DNA of 64,000 bases from Escherichia phage APECc02. The position numbers were made by a program, and so were the translations under genes. The DNA lies in the sequence record NC_041869.1; one strand, 5' to 3'. This document shows, one piece after another, positions 570 through 9,101 of the stretch. Every line of letters starts with the position of its first letter. The first letter of the stretch is position 1. The notes below the pieces were generated by a model. The model was not told where the DNA came from and did no database searches. It saw only the letters and a list, made by a program, of their open reading frames with translations.

Positions 570-920
570 TCAGTAGATGTTTTGTTTAATCTCTATTCCA
601 AACTTTTTAAACGAGTCAGCTGCAAGCATGAATTTACGAGCCGCTGATGGGTTAGAAGTATGCACGAAAATCTTCACGTTGTCAACTACAGGAGGCTTAC
701 CAAATACAAATTTTTCCTCTAGGATGCAGAAGCAATCGTATCCTTCAAAAATTTCTCCCAAGTCGCTGTCAAAATGCCACTCAGAAACTCGTCTATAAAG
801 CTTTCTCTTGTCATTGATGAAATCCATAAACTCAGAAGAGTTCTTCAGCCAAAGAGCATCTTGGAGCCCGTAATTTGACGGATCTCTCAAGTCATCCAGC
901 CACACAATCAACTTCTTCAT
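570..920 (-). CDS. hypothetical protein (116 aa), translationally coupled between RNA ligase and Sir2 genes
   Basis: ORF from track; start overlaps ligase stop by 4 nt; stop 8 nt before Sir2 start; no motif recognised. Confidence 0.5.
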   Translation of the reverse strand: MKKLIVWLDDLRDPSNYGLQDALWLKNSSEFMDFINDKRKLYRRVSEWHFDSDLGEIFEGYDCFCILEEKFVFGKPPVVDNVKIFVHTSNPSAARKFMLAADSFKKFGIEIKQNIY

Positions 921-1852
921 TGCATATAGTCCTCGTTGTGGAAATAGTAGTCAAGTATCTCGCGGCGTTCCTGCTCAAGGAGACAGTTCCACACATCTTC
1001 TGTGTAATTGCTACGAATGAAGTTTACCATGCCGTAAAACTCTTCGTCAACACGTTTAAAGATATCCTCATCCCAAATCTTCCAAGCTTTACCTCTCATT
1101 ACGGCCTTCCGTGCCAAATAGTACGGAGACTTGATCTTCAGCTGCAGATCATAAGGGTAGTAAGGCTTACGAATCATATACCCTTCACCTCTTGTTTCTG
1201 CAGCTAATTCTTTTGCATAACTGAACGGAATTTCACGCACAGTGTGAGGACGTTTTGCACCAAGGTATTTGGCAATCCCATCTAAAGCTGCCTCTGGTAG
1301 CATTATTCCAGAATCATTATATCTGCAACCTATCAAATATGCGCCATGATCTTCCTGAACAATATGCGGATCTGAAGGGTGACAAATTTCAAACATGAAT
1401 GTCATGTTTTCATTGCCCATAACCTTCTTGATAAGATCTAAATTACCACATTGCTCCTGGATGGTTTCCTTTGCGAGGTTACAATATGGAGAATCAAGAG
1501 ATCCGGTTGTTGAGAACAATAGTTCACCTTTATGAGAGGATACCACACCAAGGAATCCGTTCTTTTTCTCTACCGCCGTCACAAGCTTATTGTCAGGCAG
1601 GTTGGTGGAGTTTTCTCCCAAGTTAAACACTTTTGTGAAGGGCCATGCCACAACATTTCCTTCATTACCGACAACAATGCCTCGGCACTCCAGTAAACGA
1701 GGGGACAAATGCCATAAATTGTTGTAAAATACTTTTCTGGCATATTTATAGATCTTTAACCCAAGATCCGGGTAATATCTACTGGTTACAAGACCTTTGT
1801 CAACTAGGTCGTCTGCATTAAAATACTTCATCATACGTTCCTCATTTGTCAT
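917..1852 (-). CDS. ATP-dependent RNA ligase-like nucleotidyltransferase
   Basis: 311 aa ORF; covalent nucleotidyltransferase motifs in correct order: motif I KxNG (EKKNGF), motif IV EGxxxK (EGYMIRK), motif V LKIK; adjacent to kinase and phosphatase genes. Confidence 0.6.
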   Translation of the reverse strand: MTNEERMMKYFNADDLVDKGLVTSRYYPDLGLKIYKYARKVFYNNLWHLSPRLLECRGIVVGNEGNVVAWPFTKVFNLGENSTNLPDNKLVTAVEKKNGFLGVVSSHKGELLFSTTGSLDSPYCNLAKETIQEQCGNLDLIKKVMGNENMTFMFEICHPSDPHIVQEDHGAYLIGCRYNDSGIMLPEAALDGIAKYLGAKRPHTVREIPFSYAKELAAETRGEGYMIRKPYYPYDLQLKIKSPYYLARKAVMRGKAWKIWDEDIFKRVDEEFYGMVNFIRSNYTEDVWNCLLEQERREILDYYFHNEDYMQ

Positions 1853-1895
1853 TTTGTCAGTCTATCCTGCCACACAAATAACCTAGTGTCAACAC

Positions 1896-1924
1896 TTGAA
1901 ATTAACAAAACAGTTAGGTATACT
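1896..1924 (+). promoter_or_regulatory. sigma70-like promoter TTGAAA-17-TATACT upstream of kinase gene
   Basis: -35 at 1896-1901, -10 at 1919-1924, in divergent intergenic region. Confidence 0.4.
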
Positions 1925-1952
1925 ATCGTTGAAATTAAAACGGAGTATTACT

Positions 1953-2363
1953 ATGTCTAAAATGCTATATATCGTGCGTGGTCTACCAGGGTCTGGCAAA
2001 TCAACACTGGCAAATGCGCTATCTTTAGAAGGTCTGTATCCACATTTTGAGAACGACATGTTCTGGTACGACGATGATGGAAATTACAACTGGGATGCAA
2101 GTAAAGTAACACTTGCAGCAAAATGGTGCAAAGATAACGTAGAAGATATGATGCGTATGGGATACGACCGTATCGTGGTAAGTAATACGTTTACAAAAGA
2201 AAAATATGTGCAAGAATATATTGACATGGCGATCAGTCATGGGTATAGTTATACCGTGATCGTGGTTGAAAACCGCCATGGTAATAAAAGCATTCATGAT
2301 GTTCCAGACAGGGTTGTGGATCGTATGGAACGCCAGCTTAAAAATTGCATTAAACTTAAATGA
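1953..2363 (+). CDS. P-loop polynucleotide kinase-like protein
   Basis: ATG at 1953 with GGAG upstream; Walker A GLPGSGKST near N-terminus; small AAA_33/Pnk-kinase-like size (136 aa). Confidence 0.6.
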   Translation: MSKMLYIVRGLPGSGKSTLANALSLEGLYPHFENDMFWYDDDGNYNWDASKVTLAAKWCKDNVEDMMRMGYDRIVVSNTFTKEKYVQEYIDMAISHGYSYTVIVVENRHGNKSIHDVPDRVVDRMERQLKNCIKLK

Positions 2364-2370
2364 GGAATGT

Positions 2371-2925
2371 ATGAAATACTTTGTAACAAGCGACACACAC
2401 TTTCTCCACCAGCGGGTCATGGAGTTCGACTCATGTCAAAAACACAGATCTCAGTATGATCACAATCTTGACAGTATGAATGCGGGAATCATCACCGAGT
2501 GGAACTCTGTTGTGTCACCTGCAGACACTGTGTTCCACCTGGGAGATATTGCGTGCACTAATGATAAGAATATCAACAAATTGCTCCCAGATGTTCTAAA
2601 TATGTTGAACGGACATATTATTCTTGTTCGTGGTAACCATGACACAAGGACGACTGTCAGAATTATGAAAGAGTTCGGTCATGAGGTTGTAGATTATTAC
2701 GAGCTTCGCCACAACAAGAATTTGATCTGTATGAGCCATTACCAGTTTGCAAAGTGGAACAGAAAGCCTCACGGATCAGTCCAACTGTTCGGTCATGCTC
2801 ACGGAACCACACAGCAGTTGTTTGGCAGGCAGTTTGATGTCGGTTGGGATGTGTGGGGGAGACTCTTACCATTAGAAGAGGCATACCGTATTGCAATGAG
2901 TCTTGCTATTGACAGCGGGGAGTAA
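2371..2925 (+). CDS. calcineurin-like metallophosphoesterase (putative 2',3'-phosphatase)
   Basis: ATG 2371 with GAGG upstream; motifs DTHF, GDI, GNHD typical of metallophosphoesterases. Confidence 0.75.
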   Translation: MKYFVTSDTHFLHQRVMEFDSCQKHRSQYDHNLDSMNAGIITEWNSVVSPADTVFHLGDIACTNDKNINKLLPDVLNMLNGHIILVRGNHDTRTTVRIMKEFGHEVVDYYELRHNKNLICMSHYQFAKWNRKPHGSVQLFGHAHGTTQQLFGRQFDVGWDVWGRLLPLEEAYRIAMSLAIDSGE

Positions 2926-2972
2926 TCCCTGCTATTTTAAAGAAAATTGCCACACAAGGAGAATCAGGAGAT

Positions 2973-3323
2973 ATGAAAGATGGGGATAAGCTGCTATATC
3001 TTAAAGTCCCCCTTGAAATACTGTCTATGTCAAAAGTTTTGAATGACACAACTGGGGAGGTTGTTGTTCTTGACTTGTATGACAAGATCGTATACTGCTA
3101 CCTGCACAACTGGTATAAGCTTGGAGGAAGTTCACGCTTCACACCCAGCACAAGGAAAATTGCAGCAGATGTTGGGATAAAGAAAACAAAAGCAGCAGCG
3201 TGCGTTAAAACTTTAGAATGTGCAGGAGTGGTTGAAATATCCACACAAGGGAGAGGTAAAAGATGCACATTTTCCAAAGTTTTGCCACCAGAAGAGGTTA
3301 TTCGAATGTCAACAACTGGTTAG
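2973..3323 (+). CDS. hypothetical protein, possible DNA-binding (helix-turn-helix-like segment)
   Basis: 116 aa ORF immediately upstream of iteron array; segment TPSTRKIAADVGIKKTKAAACVKTLECAGVVE resembles HTH. Confidence 0.4.
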   Translation: MKDGDKLLYLKVPLEILSMSKVLNDTTGEVVVLDLYDKIVYCYLHNWYKLGGSSRFTPSTRKIAADVGIKKTKAAACVKTLECAGVVEISTQGRGKRCTFSKVLPPEEVIRMSTTG

Positions 3324-3397
3324 ACCAGTAAAAACTTAAATATCTGTACTATAAGGATTCGTATGTTTTATGTTCGCTCTGGAACAGAGGTTAGTAA

Positions 3398-3480
3398 CTG
3401 TCCGTGATACGGACACTACTGTCCGTCACGCGGACACATCTGCCCGTAATACGGACACTAACTGTCCGTGATACGGACAC
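3398..3480. repeat. array of four 17-bp palindromic sites TGTCCGT-N3-ACGGACA at 21-bp spacing (iterons/operators)
   Basis: Copies at 3398-3416, 3419-3437, 3440-3458 (one arm degenerate CTGCCCGT), 3462-3480; followed by an AT-rich tract 3481-3600. Confidence 0.75.
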
Positions 3481-3983
3481 ATAAAGAATATAACTAAAAT
3501 AACTAAATAATAAAAAATAAAAGATCTAGTACTTATGGTACTAAGTACATATACTTAACTTATGTAGAATATACTAGATCCTAAGTACCATGTTTTAAAT
3601 TTATTACTTACTATGGGTAGTGTCGGCCCTTCATTGGCACTCGCCTACGAGGGGCGAGATGCCGGGCCTCCCTGGTGCACACAATAACAGAAGTGCATAC
3701 ATGCAGGTCTGTTAACATGTGTGGGAGCGAAGCGATAGCGCAGGCCAAAGGCCGAGCACTGATGTGGACCACCGACGAAAGCTTGCCAGCGCCGTAAGGA
3801 GTCGGTTGAGAGTCTCCCGCGCGAGCTTGGATGAAGTTTATGTGTGGAAACGGACAAGAAGGCCCCTAAATCGCTCCACAGCTATATAAACTATACCAGG
3901 TAAGGCAATCGCACCAGTTTGATAGAAAAGCTCGTTACAAAGCGATACAGTGAGTTTTTCTATAACTTGAAGAGGAGGTAGTT

Positions 3984-4562
3984 ATGAGTCCACGCAAAGA
4001 TGACCGTGAAAAGATTGCAAAACGTTATCAGAATGAAGAACAGATGGAGAAAACTTTCAAGTGGAAGCCAGGTTTCCAGCGTAATCATTCTAACGCTCGT
4101 GATCGTAAGCATCCGGATAAGTGGTTAACACCGCCAAATGATGGCATTCAGGTTGGTGATGAGAAGGAGCTGTCACCTGGAAAAGATGGCAACTACATTC
4201 GAACTAAGGAAGCAGGTCCAAAGGATGACAGCTATCTTGTAGATAAGGTTCTTGACGGTGTTGATGTAGGTGTTGACACTGTACGAAACCTTTTTCTTGG
4301 TTGGTATCGCACAGGGTTTTTCGACATCAAGGCTATTCGTCGTGTTTGTGATATTAAAAAGTCTGCCTACGATGATGATTCCCTACATCGCACTCTGAGA
4401 CAATACTCAGAGAGATACGGTCATCCAGTTATCACTCTTGACGATATTAACGAAGTTATGTATCATGTAGAGGTTGTTGCAGGTAGGTTCGGTGATGCAT
4501 ATCTCGGTATTCTCTCTGCAAAGGATGAGGTAATGTTAAATAAGATTTACTATGAACGCTGA
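3984..4562 (+). CDS. hypothetical protein
   Basis: 192 aa ORF with GAGGAGG RBS. Confidence 0.5.
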   Translation: MSPRKDDREKIAKRYQNEEQMEKTFKWKPGFQRNHSNARDRKHPDKWLTPPNDGIQVGDEKELSPGKDGNYIRTKEAGPKDDSYLVDKVLDGVDVGVDTVRNLFLGWYRTGFFDIKAIRRVCDIKKSAYDDDSLHRTLRQYSERYGHPVITLDDINEVMYHVEVVAGRFGDAYLGILSAKDEVMLNKIYYER

Positions 4563-4572
4563 GGGGCGATTA

Positions 4573-4761
4573 ATGAACAATCCGGTAGCAAAGAACTGTA
4601 ATAAATTCAACAAGTCTGCGATTCACACTGACAGGAAAAAGAGTTGGTTTCCTGACATTGACGAGGAGCTTGAGAGTTACTTTGAAGATTTAGTCACCAA
4701 TGCAGAGGAGGTTGCGATTAAAGAATACGCAGACAGGAGGGATAAGGCCGGAATCTGTTGA
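4573..4761 (+). CDS. hypothetical protein
   Basis: ATG 4573 preceded by GAGGGG; 62 aa. Confidence 0.4.
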   Translation: MNNPVAKNCNKFNKSAIHTDRKKSWFPDIDEELESYFEDLVTNAEEVAIKEYADRRDKAGIC

Positions 4762-5938: not shown

Positions 5939-6025
5939 GGGGAGTTATCCCGTAGAGGTAGCGGTGTAGACTGTAAATCTATTGTCATTGCGACTCGGGT
6001 GGTTCGACTCCACCACTCCCCACCA
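5939..6025 (+). tRNA. tRNA-Tyr (anticodon GTA), long variable arm
   Basis: Acceptor GGGGAGT/ACTCCCC, anticodon loop CTGTAAA, T-loop TTCGACT, encoded CCA. Confidence 0.8.
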
Positions 6026-6328: not shown

Positions 6329-6427
6329 GCTAGGTAAGCCCTTTGGCAAGGGCGAGGATTTTTAATCCTGAAAATAGACGAGGTAGTCGTTGAATACATA
6401 GGTGGTTCGATTCCATCACCTAGCACC
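6329..6427 (+). tRNA. atypical tRNA-like gene (possible tRNA-Lys TTT variant or pseudogene)
   Basis: Perfect acceptor GCTAGGT/ACCTAGC, D-arm GCCC-TTTGGCAA-GGGC, T-arm GGTGG-TTCGATT-CCATC, but anticodon arm is AGGA-TTTTTAA-TCCT (4-bp stem) or 5-bp stem with 5-nt loop, then about 30-nt extra arm; only CC encoded at 3' end. Confidence 0.35.
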
Positions 6428-7500: not shown

Positions 7501-7784
7501 GAGTTGCTACACTGTTTATTGCGTGCTTGTTATTATGTGGGTGTGCAACCAGCGTTGAGAGAGAATACAAGATTGACCCTCCGGATGTAGGAAGGTTGAT
7601 TGTTAAACCCCCGGAAGGTGCCATGAAACCACCTGCTAAAGCTATGCCTTTGAAGAAAGGTGCTCCAGATGCAGTAAATTCTGGCATTATGAGGGATAAT
7701 AATTTGTCTTGTAGCAATGATAGAGCTAAATTGATCATTTTGCAAGACTATATTAGAACACTGTTTCCAAAGGAGAGAGGTTAA
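7497..7784 (+). CDS. o-spanin-like outer-membrane lipoprotein
   Basis: Signal/lipobox LLLCGC then Pro-rich mature region; start overlaps upstream stop (ATGA). Confidence 0.55.
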   Translation: MRVATLFIACLLLCGCATSVEREYKIDPPDVGRLIVKPPEGAMKPPAKAMPLKKGAPDAVNSGIMRDNNLSCSNDRAKLIILQDYIRTLFPKERG

Positions 7785-8218
7785 TGTCTAAGATTTCTAA
7801 GATTTACGGACCGTGTTCTGAAAAGCAGAAGATGATCCTCGAAAACGATGCAGATATTTTGGTAATCGGCGGTGCCGCAGGGTCTGGCAAGTCGTTCCTC
7901 TTGCAGTTGATGCCGCTTAAAATTATTGATGACCCACACAGCTCTGTGGTTATGTTCCGAAGAACAACCCCGCAGTTGGAAGGTGAGGGTGGACTATGGC
8001 CTAAAGCAGTAGCTATTTATAGTGATCTGCCTGAAAACATTAAGCCAAAGTTTAGAGAGAAGGATCATAAGTTCATTTTTCCACGGTTTGATCCGAGCAC
8101 TGGCAAGTGGGATAGAAGCAAAAAGGGAGCTGTTGTAAAATACTGCCACATGGAGTATGTACAAGATAAGCTTAACCATCAGGGGCTTGAGTACACCATG
8201 GTTTGCTTCGATGAGGGT
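7784..8218 (+). CDS. terminase large subunit, exon 1 (ATPase domain)
   Basis: Walker A GGAAGSGKS, Walker B-like MVCFDE; ORF stops at 8219-8221 immediately after DEG, inside intron. Confidence 0.75.
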
Positions 8219-9101
8219 TAATTTGTAGCTCTCGTAAAACCTCCCTAATTGCGGGGAAATCTTTATTATTGACACCACCAACCTGTTATGGTAACATAAT
8301 AGAGGCTTCGAAGAGAGATCGAAGGTATGGTAACAGTGTGTTAATTTAGATAATCCGCAGCGAAGCATCCGAGAGGATGAACGTTCAACGACTAGTCGAA
8401 AGACGTAGAATCAAGCGATTCGAAACGGGAGGGTGAATGTGTAATACTAAAAAATGTATGGATTGCCAAAGAGTTCTGCCTATTGATGATTTCTTTTTAT
8501 CATCTAAGAGCAAGGATGGATACTCAGGTACATGCAAGGAATGCTATATGTACTACAGGAAGGGTGGATCTCGTAAAAACAAAAATATGGTTAAGAGAGA
8601 TGACGCAGCATTGTTTATTCAAGACTTGCTGAAGAAAGGTGAACTTTTTGAATGCAAATCTTGTCATGAAAGTATGCTCGCTGATAGTTTTTACACAAAA
8701 CGTGACTATGGTAAAGTATATCTGGTTACGAACAGGTGTAAGATGTGTGAAAAGTTTTATCAGATTGAGAAGAAATTTCACATAACAAAAGATGAATACT
8801 ATCGTCTACTCTCAGATCAAGATCATAAGTGTGCCATTTGTAGAATATCTCTTAATGAGTATAGGACGCAAGGGTACAGAGATTTCTTTTGTGTTGATCA
8901 TGACCATAAAACTGGTGCTGTAAGAGGGTTGCTTTGTGATAAATGCAACAGAGCTTTAGGTTTCTTCCAAGAAGATGAGGAAACTATTCTTAGAGCGGCA
9001 GAGTATTTACACATTCATAAGATATAGTCTGGTCTGCATGGAGACATGCAGCTGCCTGAAAATGGCGGGGCAAGACTAGCGACCTTGCCCGAACATAAAC
9101 G
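8219..9101 (+). mobile_element. group I intron with embedded HNH homing endonuclease gene
   Basis: Conserved core elements P (aattgcggggaaatc 8247-8260), Q (aatccgcagc 8352-8361), R (gttcaacgactagtc 8383-8397), S-like (9072-9084); exon 1 ends in T 8218, intron ends in G 9101; flanking exons are in frame. Confidence 0.75.
8437..9027 (+). CDS. HNH (endonuclease VII-like) homing endonuclease, intron-encoded
   Basis: GGGAGGG RBS; Cys-rich N-terminus; motif FCVDHDHKTGAVRGLLCDKCNRALG. Confidence 0.8.
   Translation: MCNTKKCMDCQRVLPIDDFFLSSKSKDGYSGTCKECYMYYRKGGSRKNKNMVKRDDAALFIQDLLKKGELFECKSCHESMLADSFYTKRDYGKVYLVTNRCKMCEKFYQIEKKFHITKDEYYRLLSDQDHKCAICRISLNEYRTQGYRDFFCVDHDHKTGAVRGLLCDKCNRALGFFQEDEETILRAAEYLHIHKI

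What the first reader, a model, noticed from the sequence alone, without database searches (positions are those of the whole stretch)
3376..3600. Iteron array of 17-bp palindromes followed by an AT-rich tract (candidate origin or operator)
Seen in sequence: four copies of TGTCCGT-N3-ACGGACA spaced 21 bp apart (two helical turns), then about 120 bp that is over 75 percent AT with additional short palindromes, all in a 660-bp non-coding interval downstream of a small HTH-like gene. Inference: a binding array for a dimeric DNA-binding protein, such as a replication initiator or a repressor controlling the rightward early genes.
Basis: partly seen in the sequence, partly recalled or inferred. Interest (0 to 1): 0.6.

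Follow-up and report, generated by a model that had tools for sequence, protein, structure and literature searches.

The report
Candidate replication origin of rV5-like phages
Four evenly spaced 17-bp palindromes sit beside the most easily melted DNA in this rV5-like E. coli phage genome, just downstream of a small gene related to the iteron-binding domain of a proven replication initiator, so this is most likely the phage's still-unmapped replication origin, though no experiment yet shows it.

Summary
The palindromes TGYCCGY-N3-RCGGACA start at 3399, 3420, 3441 and 3463 (spacing 21, 21, 22 bp). They are the only matches in the about 134.5-kb genome. A 127-bp tract of about 80% A+T follows.

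The window is a Vequintavirus (rV5-like coliphage, 99.9% identical to phage AlexBoehm).

Evidence for an origin:
- **Conservation.** The array and the AT tract are 3-4 times more conserved than the flanking genes. Copy number varies by whole units (2, 4 or 6).
- **Melting.** The AT tract is the least stable 100-bp duplex in the whole genome.
- **Protein.** The upstream 116-aa protein is homologous to the N-terminal iteron-binding domain of the Vibrio satellite PLE initiator RepA (PDB 4RO3; E 7e-6, profile 1e-11).
- **Relatives.** Three other Vequintavirinae genera and Pseudomonas phage phiPMW pair a small homologue with their own, different repeats, mostly next to an A/T-rich tract.

Best reading (about 0.55): an iteron-plus-unwinding-element origin with a binding-domain-only initiator.

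Main rival (about 0.25): an operator array.

Nothing here shows binding or initiation. The rV5 genome paper could not define an origin, so this makes the question testable.

The parts
2909..2938 (+). Predicted sigma-70-type promoter (TTGACA-18-TATTTT, extended -10) upstream of the wHTH gene. Its transcription would run through the array and the AT tract.
   Evidence: Consensus scan only; no terminator-like site between 2800 and 4100.
2973..3323 (+). Gene for a 116-aa winged-helix protein (rV5 gp79). It is a homologue of the iteron-binding N-terminal domain of PLE RepA and is the candidate origin-binding protein. It has no C-terminal recruitment domain.
   Evidence: PDB 4RO3 E 7.4e-6 and profile E 1.2e-11. 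Reciprocal tblastn of 4RO3 finds Vequintavirus at 33-35% identity over 95-97% of the query. PHROG 12838 'replication initiation protein'. Pfam DUF6945 and HTH_36 both fall just below their cut-offs.
3376..3398 (.). Hypervariable 23-bp spacer between the conserved post-stop segment and the array.
   Evidence: 61% variable columns, against 3.7% in the array (alignment).
3399..3415 (.). Palindrome (iteron) 1, TGTCCGTGATACGGACA.
3420..3436 (.). Palindrome (iteron) 2, TGTCCGTCACGCGGACA. It is a perfect TGTCCGC...GCGGACA dyad in relatives Aya and L013.
3441..3457 (.). Palindrome (iteron) 3, TGCCCGTAATACGGACA.
3463..3479 (.). Palindrome (iteron) 4, TGTCCGTGATACGGACA.
3480..3606 (.). AT-rich tract (about 80% A+T), the candidate DNA-unwinding element. 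It is the least stable duplex of the whole genome and is nearly invariant among relatives.
   Evidence: Nearest-neighbour dG -102.2 kcal/mol per 100 bp; next lowest -109.0; genome mean -133.6, sd 5.8. 5.5% variable columns.
3514..3526 (-). GATCTTTTATTTT, the only exact match in the 64-kb window to the E. coli oriC 13-mer consensus GATCTnTTnTTTT. It overlaps the 10-mer TAAAAGATCT shared with the AT tracts of Seunavirus, Mydovirus and Henunavirus.
   Evidence: The oriC consensus is from established knowledge (Bramhill and Kornberg 1988), recalled rather than looked up here.
3527..3591 (.). Inverted-repeat block with three TAAGTAC/GTACTTA motifs (3529-3535 on the minus strand, 3542-3548 and 3582-3588 on the plus strand) and the second GATC (3577-3580). 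Possibly a second protein site or a cruciform; function unknown.
   Evidence: 3 of the 6 TAAGTAC occurrences in the window fall here. Inverted repeats I2 and I15. Invariant in 6 phages.
3607..3900 (.). GC-rich (54-57% GC) conserved non-coding segment. Whether it belongs to the element is uncertain; it could be a structured RNA or a leader.
   Evidence: No codon bias. Fold z-scores -2.7 and -2.9 on the two strands. Only 1 compensatory pair. No Rfam match.
1853..1895 (.). Divergent junction between the RNA ligase gene (minus) and the polynucleotide kinase gene (plus). The cumulative GC-skew turning point at 1911 lies 16 bp beyond it, 1.5 kb from the array.
   Evidence: It corresponds to the rV5 skew change at 66675-66725.

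Best explanation
This is the cis-acting core of a phage replication origin of the iteron-plus-unwinding-element type, together with the gene for its binding protein.

Proposed mechanism:
1. Dimers of the 116-aa winged-helix protein (2973-3323) bind the four 17-bp dyads. The dyads lie on one face of the helix at two-turn spacing.
2. The resulting nucleoprotein complex destabilises the adjoining 127-bp AT tract, which is the weakest duplex in the genome. Transcription arriving from the promoter at 2909 may help.
3. The phage's own T7/ICP1-type replisome then enters. That replisome comprises a gp4-like primase-helicase, a Pol A polymerase and an SF1B helicase.

Shown here:
- the anatomy and the uniqueness of the array;
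- its conservation and its change in whole units;
- the extreme duplex instability of the tract;
- the protein's homology to the RepA N-terminal domain;
- the recurrence of the gene + repeats + A/T-rich-tract module in other lineages.

Inferred, not shown: that the protein binds these sites, that the tract melts, that replication starts here, and how a protein without a recruitment domain hands over to the helicase.
For: 1. **One phased array of dyads.** There are four dyads at 21/21/22 bp, and the consensus occurs only here in 134.5 kb.
2. **Pattern of variation fits a dimer site.**
   - The 3-bp centre varies freely (GAT, CAC, AAT, GAG, TAC).
   - Arm position 7/11 switches T:A to C:G symmetrically.
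   - The array grows and shrinks by whole units: 2 copies in phage navn, 4 in most, 6 in typing phage 14.
3. **Purifying selection at the DNA level.** The array has 3.7% variable columns and the AT tract 5.5%. The two flanking genes have 12.7% and 14.5%, and the spacer just upstream has 61%.
4. **Weakest duplex in the genome.** 3480-3579 is the least stable 100-bp duplex, about 5.4 sd from the mean. It contains the window's only exact GATCTnTTnTTTT.
5. **Protein homology.**
   - PDB 4RO3 matches at E 7.4e-6, and at 1.2e-11 with a family profile. The next hits are generic HTH regulators at about 1e-3.
   - 4RO3 is the N-terminal domain of PLE RepA. It crystallised as a dimer, and full-length RepA shifts the semi-palindromic repeat-3 iteron in EMSA. 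That repeat is needed for PLE replication (PMC7145576).
   - The reciprocal tblastn of 4RO3 against 50,697 phage records returns only ICP1-type Vibrio phages (whose hit position fits the nuclease Odn), the Vequintavirus gene and phiPMW.
   - Remote relatives are HTH_36 or DUF6945 proteins that PHROGs files as replication initiators, O-like proteins or DnaD-like loaders.
6. **Independent lineages repeat the architecture with different repeats.**
   - Seunavirus, Mydovirus and Henunavirus have a 105-aa homologue with two TCAAwTTGAGCAyAGGC repeats 23 bp apart. These are followed by an A/T-rich tract of about 45-80 bp and TAAAAGATCT, in the same polarity as here.
   - In the Henunavirus genome that tract is again the least stable duplex of 147 kb.
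   - phiPMW has a 136-aa homologue beside three GGACAAAATGTCC dyads at a divergent junction about 2 kb from the published GC-skew minimum.
7. **Position.** The module lies 1.5 kb from the genome's cumulative GC-skew turning point, at the major divergence of transcription.
8. **Replisome type.** The rV5 paper describes a Pol A polymerase, a gp4d-type primase-helicase and a PIF1/RecD-type helicase, with the polymerase homologous to that of ICP1. This is the kind of replisome PLE RepA exploits.
Against: - There are no experimental data for binding, unwinding or initiation.
- The protein is only 116 aa. It lacks the C-terminal domain that RepA_N-type initiators carry, so it may only bind DNA.
- Pfam hits (DUF6945, HTH_36) fall just below their gathering scores, and the RepA_N model itself did not match.
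- The AlphaFold model was unusable (pLDDT 45), so the fold was not compared.
- GC skew in these phages follows transcription direction, as the rV5 authors noted. The skew argument is therefore weak, and the array is 1.5 kb from the turning point.
- An AT-rich, highly conserved tract could equally be a promoter or regulatory region for non-sigma-70 transcription.
- In Seunavirus, Mydovirus and Henunavirus the repeats sit between a promoter and the gene's ribosome-binding site, a classic autoregulatory position.
- No DnaA boxes or IHF sites were found.
- T7-type replisomes can start from transcripts without any initiator protein.
Confidence: 0.55

Rival explanations
1. A purely regulatory operator array. 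The 116-aa protein would be a transcription factor (as many GenBank records call it) that binds the four dyads. It would repress, activate or block transcription entering the downstream leader, tRNA and late-gene unit, or autoregulate. The AT tract would be promoter or UP-element DNA. This is not exclusive of origin function, because Rep proteins commonly do both.
For: - Palindromic sites for a dimeric HTH protein are typical operators.
- In Seunavirus, Mydovirus and Henunavirus the repeats lie between a sigma-70-like divergent promoter pair and the homologue's ribosome-binding site.
- In Aeromonas phage 4L372D a single palindrome sits just upstream of the ribosome-binding site of a gene that lies upstream of the homologue.
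- The protein has no domain beyond the winged helix.
- The exact sequence of the AT tract is conserved, not just its composition.
Against: - No sigma-70-like promoter lies in or beside the array or tract; the nearest is 460 bp upstream of the array.
- In Vequintavirus the array is downstream of the gene, so it cannot act as a simple auto-operator.
- The site occurs only once in 134.5 kb.
- The specific homology is to an initiator's iteron-binding domain, not to a regulator family.
- This reading does not predict that the tract should be the least stable duplex in two unrelated genomes.
Confidence: 0.25
2. A packaging recognition (pac) site. Terminase or an accessory protein would recognise the repeat array to start headful packaging.
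For: - Vequintaviruses are reported as circularly permuted, headful packagers, and no pac site is known (PMC8407724, PMC13211470).
- The array is unique in the genome and lies 4.3 kb upstream of the large terminase gene at 7784.
- One GenBank record (MG065672) starts at the array.
Against: - Proximity to terminase is not conserved: the Henunavirus module is about 17 kb from its terminase gene.
- The adjacent protein is related to replication initiators, not to small terminases.
- The record start and two metagenomic contig ends at the array are what assemblers produce at repeats.
- A pac site has no need for the weakest duplex in the genome.
Confidence: 0.05
3. RNA-level hairpins. The four palindromes would act in the transcript as 7-bp stem-loops that stabilise or process the 3' end of the upstream mRNA, in the manner of REP elements.
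For: - The arms are conserved while the 3-nt centres vary, as expected for stems and loops.
- The array transcript folds far better than shuffles, z about -6.8 to -7.0 on the two strands. That is trivially expected for palindromes.
Against: - The arm mismatches are C.A in copy 3 and T.G in copy 2 on the plus strand. On the minus strand they become G.U and A.C. Neither strand therefore keeps all stems, and position 15 never compensates.
- Strict two-turn phasing is a property of duplex DNA.
- No U-tract or terminator-like site was found.
- In the predicted folds, arms of neighbouring copies pair with each other rather than forming four separate hairpins.
Confidence: 0.05
4. A conflict-related element rather than the phage's own origin. 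The binding-domain-only protein and its sites would act against, or be exploited by, a satellite or defence system that uses RepA-like recognition, by analogy with ICP1 Odn and PLE.
For: - The same DNA-binding domain has been recruited for phage-satellite conflict (Odn; PMC8263062).
- A GIY-YIG fusion of this domain exists among the remote relatives (P0012).
Against: - The protein was found in all 117 Vequintavirus records at 88% identity or more, and the intergenic region in 117 records at 91% or more.
- Analogous modules exist in sister genera, which suggests a core function.
- Nothing similar to the array or tract occurs in 5,426 complete E. coli genomes.
Confidence: 0.05

Closest known systems
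Origin and RepA initiator of the Vibrio cholerae phage satellite PLE (RepA N-terminal domain, PDB 4RO3; Barth et al., NAR 2020, PMC7145576)
   Same: - The 116-aa protein is a sequence homologue of the RepA N-terminal domain (E 7.4e-6; profile 1.2e-11).
- The PLE origin is a set of three closely spaced semi-palindromic iterons in a non-coding region near the gene.
- The helper phage ICP1 has a Pol A polymerase and a gp4d-type helicase-primase, the families the rV5 paper reports for rV5.
   Different: - PLE RepA has a C-terminal domain; this protein does not.
- The PLE iterons are about 30 bp and converge on a poly-A/T centre (TTTATAGG..TGAAAATCA..CCTATAAA). They have no sequence similarity to TGYCCGY-N3-RCGGACA.
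- PLE is a satellite, whereas here the module is in a lytic phage.
- Binding and origin function are proven for PLE and untested here.
Phage lambda ori and O protein (established knowledge, not tested here)
   Same: - Four dyad-symmetric iterons of about 19 bp, bound by dimers of the O N-terminal winged-helix domain, lie next to an AT-rich region that unwinds.
- Transcription through the region activates the origin.
- The sister-genus homologue matches PHROG 'replication initiation O-like' families.
   Different: - Lambda ori lies inside the O gene.
- O has a C-terminal domain that recruits P-DnaB, and lambda uses the host replisome.
- No direct match to Pfam Phage_rep_O was seen.
RepA_N plasmid initiators of Firmicutes (pSK41, pTZ2162; Pfam PF06970)
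   Same: An N-terminal winged-helix dimer binds semi-palindromic iterons. PLE RepA, the homologue found here, was assigned to this family by structure.
   Different: - The Pfam RepA_N model did not match this protein at E up to 1.
- There is no C-terminal domain.
- The iterons lie outside the gene and do not converge on a poly-A tract.
Transcription-primed origins of T7 (promoters plus AT-rich region) and T4 (oriF, oriG) (established knowledge)
   Same: The replisome type is the same as T7's. An AT-rich unwinding tract lies in the path of a promoter's transcript.
   Different: Those origins need no sequence-specific initiator or iterons. Here an array of protein sites adjoins the tract.
ICP1 origin-directed nuclease Odn (PMC8263062)
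   Same: It shares the RepA-N-terminal-like DNA-binding domain that recognises iterons.
   Different: Odn carries a T5orf172/GIY-YIG nuclease domain and cuts a foreign origin. The 116-aa protein has no catalytic domain.

Membership tests
Iteron-type (Rep plus iterons plus unwinding element) replication origin | Three or more repeated initiator-binding sites in helical phase | tested here: met
   Four dyads at 21/21/22 bp; they are unique in the genome.
Iteron-type (Rep plus iterons plus unwinding element) replication origin | Adjacent AT-rich, easily melted region | tested here: met
   Least stable 100-bp duplex of 134.5 kb by nearest-neighbour energy. The same holds for the sister-genus module. 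Actual melting was not tested.
Iteron-type (Rep plus iterons plus unwinding element) replication origin | The cognate initiator encoded nearby binds the iterons | not testable with these tools
   The gene is adjacent and homologous to an iteron-binding domain. Repeats differ wherever the protein differs. Binding itself needs EMSA or footprinting.
Iteron-type (Rep plus iterons plus unwinding element) replication origin | Replication initiates at the site, or the site confers replication | not testable with these tools
   No marker-frequency or plasmid assay is available. The rV5 paper left the origin undefined.
Iteron-type (Rep plus iterons plus unwinding element) replication origin | Host-factor sites (DnaA boxes, IHF); common but not universal | tested here: not met
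   No TTATNCACA with up to 1 mismatch and no IHF consensus in 3300-4000.
RepA_N-family initiator (including PLE RepA) | N-terminal winged-helix DNA-binding domain homologous to RepA_N or the PLE RepA N-terminal domain | tested here: met
   4RO3 E 7.4e-6 with the single sequence and 1.2e-11 with the profile; the reciprocal tblastn also hits. Pfam PF06970 itself was not matched. Homology is therefore to the PLE branch only.
RepA_N-family initiator (including PLE RepA) | C-terminal domain that engages replication machinery | tested here: not met
   The protein ends about 25 residues after the winged helix (116 aa). The downstream 192-aa protein has no detectable family or structure match.
RepA_N-family initiator (including PLE RepA) | Semi-palindromic iterons converging on a poly-A tract | tested here: inconclusive
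   The sites are palindromic, but the centre is a variable 3-mer and not poly-A. The phiPMW homologue's sites, GGACA-AAA-TGTCC, do fit.
Repressor/operator array | Dyad sites overlapping or flanking a promoter | tested here: not met
   No sigma-70-like promoter lies within 3324-3983. Phage-specific promoter types could not be scanned.
Repressor/operator array | Sites at the regulator's own promoter (autoregulation) | tested here: not met
   The array lies downstream of the gene and 460 bp from its predicted promoter. The feature is met in Seunavirus, Mydovirus and Henunavirus.
Headful pac site | Location in or next to the terminase genes, conserved across relatives | tested here: not met
   4.3 kb from the large terminase gene here and about 17 kb in Henunavirus.
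Headful pac site | Virion DNA ends start at the site | not testable with these tools
   Only the packaging type is published: permuted, headful.
Known RNA family (Rfam) | Match to a curated covariance model | tested here: not met
   Only tRNAs reach threshold in the window. Nothing credible was found in 3300-4000.

The most novel reading that the evidence does not exclude
Small proteins consisting of the RepA-N-terminal-like domain alone, each paired with its own dyad iterons and the genome's weakest duplex, could define a widespread and so far unrecognised class of origins in large lytic phages with T7/ICP1-type replisomes. Candidates seen here are Vequintavirus, Seunavirus, Mydovirus, Henunavirus and Plaisancevirus phiPMW. 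In this reading the initiator has no recruitment domain. It would work by remodelling DNA alone so that a phage helicase can enter, as was proposed for PLE RepA. The PLE RepA and ICP1 Odn binding domains would then descend from such phage origin-binding proteins.
Probability: 0.2. Interest if true: 0.7.

Novelty: new variant of a known kind. Interest (0 to 1): 0.5.

Why it matters
rV5-like phages are among the most commonly isolated E. coli myoviruses. They are used for O157 typing, in therapy cocktails and in the BASEL reference collection. Their origin of replication is unknown: the rV5 genome paper tried skew analysis and could not define one.

This finding gives a specific 230-bp candidate and a candidate binding protein that standard assays can test. 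If confirmed, it would:
- show how a phage with a T7/ICP1-like replisome chooses its start site using a minimal, binding-domain-only relative of a satellite initiator;
- link lytic-phage origins to the RepA/Odn domain exchanged in the ICP1-PLE arms race;
- supply a phage-dependent replicon useful for engineering these phages.

Tried and rejected
- **Structure prediction.** The 116-aa protein with a 5-sequence alignment gave pLDDT 45. No fold search was run on it.
- **Protein homologue searches.**
  - The word-indexed search found only 5 near-identical clusters.
  - The same search with the 4RO3 fragment found nothing.
  - The all-against-library HMMER search gave only 10 hits, of which 5 were usable remote relatives.
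- **IMG/VR.** No relatives of the protein were found. The exact palindrome pattern gave only scattered single chance hits.
- **E. coli genomes and plasmids.** Nothing similar to the array or tract was found in 5,426 complete E. coli genomes. The only plasmid hit is a mislabelled phage genome. There is therefore no evidence for a satellite or plasmid sharing the site.
- **Rfam.** Nothing was found for the array, the tract or the GC-rich segment.
- **DnaA boxes and IHF sites.** None were found.
- **Sigma-70 promoters and intrinsic terminators.** None were found in the tract.
- **Coding potential of 3620-3889.** Rejected: variable columns by codon position are 13/10/14, and the synonymous fraction is about 0.3 in all frames.
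- **Virion protein idea.** The rV5 supplement labels gp79 'structural protein (MS evidence)'. The support is two non-tryptic, low-scoring peptides, one of them about 3 Da off. I did not build on it.
- **Physical genome end at the array.** The start of record MG065672 and two contig ends at the array are best explained as assembly breaks at the repeat.
- **Second TAAAAGATCT site.** The copy near 69.1 kb lies in ordinary coding DNA of 56% A+T and was dismissed.
Full report
**Identity of the window**

The region 2900-4600 is 99.9% identical to Escherichia phage AlexBoehm (Bas56). It is 91-99% identical to 118 records of the genus Vequintavirus, the rV5-like myoviruses.

On the plus strand the local gene order is:
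- polynucleotide kinase;
- metallophosphoesterase;
- a 116-aa HTH protein (2973-3323);
- a 660-bp gap;
- a 192-aa protein of unknown function;
- small genes and a tRNA cluster;
- spanins and the large terminase.

The RNA ligase gene diverges on the minus strand at about 1853-1895.

**The observation**

Four 17-bp palindromes start at 3399, 3420, 3441 and 3463, spaced 21, 21 and 22 bp apart.
- With up to two mismatches the pattern has 4 hits in 64 kb against 0.13 expected, and no shuffle reached 4.
- I stitched the window to the rest of the AlexBoehm genome, giving 134.5 kb. The consensus TGYCCGY-N3-RCGGACA occurs only at these four places.
- The following tract is 81% A+T over 3480-3579 and 80% over 3486-3605.

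**Comparative anatomy within the genus**

I aligned six phages, including the most diverged available (Aya, 88% protein identity), and scored variable columns by segment.

| Segment | Variable columns |
|---|---|
| Array (3399-3479) | 3.7% |
| AT tract (3480-3606) | 5.5% |
| HTH gene | 14.5% |
| 192-aa gene | 12.7% |
| 23-bp spacer before the array (3376-3398) | 61% |

The tract is thus conserved in exact sequence, not only in composition.

Copy number changes by whole units: 2 in phage navn, 4 in most phages and 6 in O157 typing phage 14. Phasing is always 21-22 bp.

Within sites the 3-bp centre is free (GAT, CAC, AAT, GAG, TAC). Arm position 7 and its partner 11 switch together from T:A to C:G. 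Position 3 tolerates C. This is the pattern expected for a dimeric protein reading two half-sites. It argues against RNA hairpins, because the mismatches cannot all be read as wobble pairs on either strand.

**The AT tract as an unwinding element**

By nearest-neighbour energies, 3480-3579 is the least stable 100-bp duplex in the window and in the whole 134.5-kb genome. Its value is -102.2 kcal/mol. The next lowest is -109.0, and the genome mean is -133.6 with sd 5.8.

The tract carries:
- the window's only exact match to GATCTnTTnTTTT, the E. coli oriC 13-mer consensus (established knowledge, recalled, not a test of function);
- two GATC sites;
- three of the window's six TAAGTAC motifs, arranged as inverted repeats.

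No DnaA box or IHF consensus is present. No sigma-70-like promoter or intrinsic terminator was found in the tract. The nearest predicted promoter is at 2909-2938, upstream of the HTH gene.

**The protein**

Family matches:
- Pfam gives only sub-threshold matches to DUF6945 and HTH_36.
- PHROGs places it in family 12838, labelled 'replication initiation protein'. It has weaker hits to the N-terminal parts of longer initiator families. These labels are annotations, not experiments.

The informative result is the match to PDB 4RO3.
- The match has E 7.4e-6 with the single sequence.
- It improves to 1.2e-11 with a profile of the family plus sister-genus and remote relatives. All other structures are generic HTH regulators at about 1e-3.
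- 4RO3 is the N-terminal domain of RepA of the Vibrio cholerae phage satellite PLE. It crystallised as a dimer and structurally resembles the RepA_N initiators.
- Purified RepA shifts the semi-palindromic repeat-3 iteron, which is required for PLE replication (PMC7145576).
- Searching the 4RO3 fragment against all 50,697 phage records returns only three groups: ICP1-type Vibrio phages (whose hit position fits the nuclease Odn), the Vequintavirus gene at 33-35% identity over 95-97% of the query, and Pseudomonas phage phiPMW.

The protein is only 116 aa and has no counterpart of the RepA C-terminal domain.

The rV5 paper reports a Pol A polymerase homologous to that of ICP1, a gp4d-type primase-helicase and a PIF1/RecD-type helicase. 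Those are the families PLE exploits in ICP1.

**The module in other lineages**

The 116-aa protein, the intergenic DNA and the 192-aa gene are confined to Vequintavirus.

*Seunavirus, Mydovirus and Henunavirus.*
- They carry a 105-aa homologue (BLASTP E 1e-6; PHROG 8102 N-terminal part, E 1.4e-35; O-like families) at the major divergent junction.
- Directly upstream of its ribosome-binding site lie two TCAAwTTGAGCAyAGGC repeats 23 bp apart.
- An A/T-rich tract of about 45-80 bp comes next, followed by TAAAAGATCT.
- The order matches the window: repeats, then the tract, then the GATC motif.
- I downloaded the whole 147-kb Henunavirus genome. There the tract is again the least stable 60-bp and 100-bp duplex.

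*phiPMW.*
- It has a 136-aa homologue at a divergent junction (RNA ligase on one side, tRNAs downstream on the other).
- Three GGACAAAATGTCC dyads precede it.
- Its authors placed the GC-skew minimum about 2 kb away (PMC5587285).

The gene, the repeats and (outside phiPMW) the weak duplex therefore travel together, while the repeat sequence changes with the protein.

**Genome-level position**

The cumulative GC skew turns at window position 1911, the divergent junction 1.5 kb from the array. Its maximum is near 98.8 kb, at a convergent, gene-free region.

This corresponds to the rV5 skew change at 66675-66725. The rV5 authors attributed that change to transcription orientation, and they left the origin undefined. 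I treat skew as weak, confounded support.

**Interpretation**

The simplest account of all the features is an iteron-type origin.
1. Dimers of the RepA-N-terminal-like protein occupy phased dyads.
2. They destabilise the adjoining weakest duplex.
3. The phage replisome enters.

The architecture parallels lambda ori (four dyad iterons plus an AT-rich region; established knowledge) and the PLE origin.

The chief uncertainty is that the protein lacks any recruitment domain. It may remodel DNA only, as suggested for PLE RepA. It may co-operate with transcription, as in T7 and T4 origins. Or it may be no more than a regulator.

Rivals:
- **Operator array.** This is the strongest rival, and it is not exclusive of origin function. 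It fits the position of the repeats in the sister genera. It fails here on promoter proximity, on the single-locus occurrence and on the extreme duplex instability.
- **pac site.** Published data show headful, permuted packaging. The distance to terminase is not conserved, however, and the neighbouring protein is initiator-like.
- **RNA hairpins and a conflict-related role.** Both are less likely, for the reasons given above.

**Novelty**

Parts of this are already in databases.
- A few records annotate a 'repeat_region'.
- RefSeq and PHROGs call the gene 'replication initiation protein'.

Full-text searches found no paper that describes an origin for rV5-like phages or links the array, the tract and the protein.

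If it is an origin, it belongs to a known kind but is a variant: the initiator is the binding domain alone.

Interest is moderate. A specialist would not be astonished. It does, however, turn an open question for a much-used phage group into a set of simple experiments.

Noticed in passing
window 3607-3900: A GC-rich (54-57% GC), conserved, apparently non-coding segment lies between the AT tract and the next gene. It shows no codon-position bias in any frame. Predicted RNA folds are more stable than shuffles on both strands (z -2.7 and -2.9). There is only one compensatory pair among six sequences and no Rfam match. The small ORFs annotated here (rV5 gene 78; bas56_0214 and bas56_0215) are probably spurious. 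It may be an ncRNA or a structured leader.
   Followed up: partly
window 3895-3960; L010 1440-1500; L011 760-790: The leader before the 192-aa gene shares AGGTAAGG with the divergent intergenic regions of both Stephanstirmvirinae phages examined (Justusliebigvirus and Phapecoctavirus), and GCTCGTTACArAGC with the Justusliebigvirus one. Those regions also have AT-rich tracts flanked by (T)AGATC(T) and GTAC-rich repeats, but no adjacent RepA-like gene.
   Followed up: partly
window 7784-9027: The large terminase ORF (Walker A motif at its start) stops at 8221 after 145 aa. An HNH-endonuclease-like ORF follows at 8437-9027. This suggests a terminase gene interrupted by a mobile intron or homing endonuclease.
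   Followed up: no
window 5941-6020 and 6329-6425: Two members of the tRNA cluster score only just above the Rfam threshold (29.9 and 35.5 bits). One is 97 nt long, and different GenBank records annotate it as 'tRNA-OTHER' or tRNA-Lys. They may be tRNAs with long inserts or tRNA-like elements.
   Followed up: no
window 2973-3323 (rV5 gp79): The rV5 paper's Table S3 labels this protein 'structural protein (MS evidence)'. The evidence is two non-tryptic, singly charged peptides with XCorr of about 1.9-2.1, one about 3 Da off in mass. That is weak support for a virion location.
   Followed up: yes
AlexBoehm MZ501048 90470-92993 (L121 34470-36993), outside the window: A 2.5-kb stretch without annotated genes lies at the convergent junction, near the cumulative GC-skew maximum. 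It is possibly the 'non-coding' box in the rV5 map. It has no Rfam match.
   Followed up: partly
L012 (ends 113 bp after the gene), L013 (ends 168 bp after the gene), MG065672 position 1: Two metagenomic contigs end, and one GenBank record starts, inside or at the palindrome array. This is most simply explained as assembly breaks at the repeat rather than true DNA ends.
   Followed up: partly
CP057073.1 (PLSDB 'plasmid', 137,565 bp): A record filed as a non-mobilizable E. coli plasmid from cattle faeces encodes the 116-aa protein at 97% identity and has the size of an rV5-like genome. It is probably a phage genome carried in, or contaminating, the culture.
   Followed up: no
phage records MG0656xx: Eighteen records named 'Campylobacter phage', with Campylobacter given as host, match this E. 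coli phage region, about 97-98% identical where listed. This suggests mislabelling or contamination in that data set.
   Followed up: no
P0012 (228 aa, remote relative): A protein that fuses a GIY-YIG nuclease domain to the same DUF6945/RepA-N-terminal-like domain, the same domain pair as the ICP1 origin-directed nuclease Odn. The binding domain therefore seems to be reused in nucleases more widely.
   Followed up: partly
window 917-2925: RNA ligase, polynucleotide kinase and a metallophosphoesterase flank the divergent junction. The gene content resembles a tRNA-repair set next to the phage's tRNA cluster. The same genes neighbour the RepA-like module in Henunavirus, and an RNA ligase gene does so in phiPMW.
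   Followed up: no
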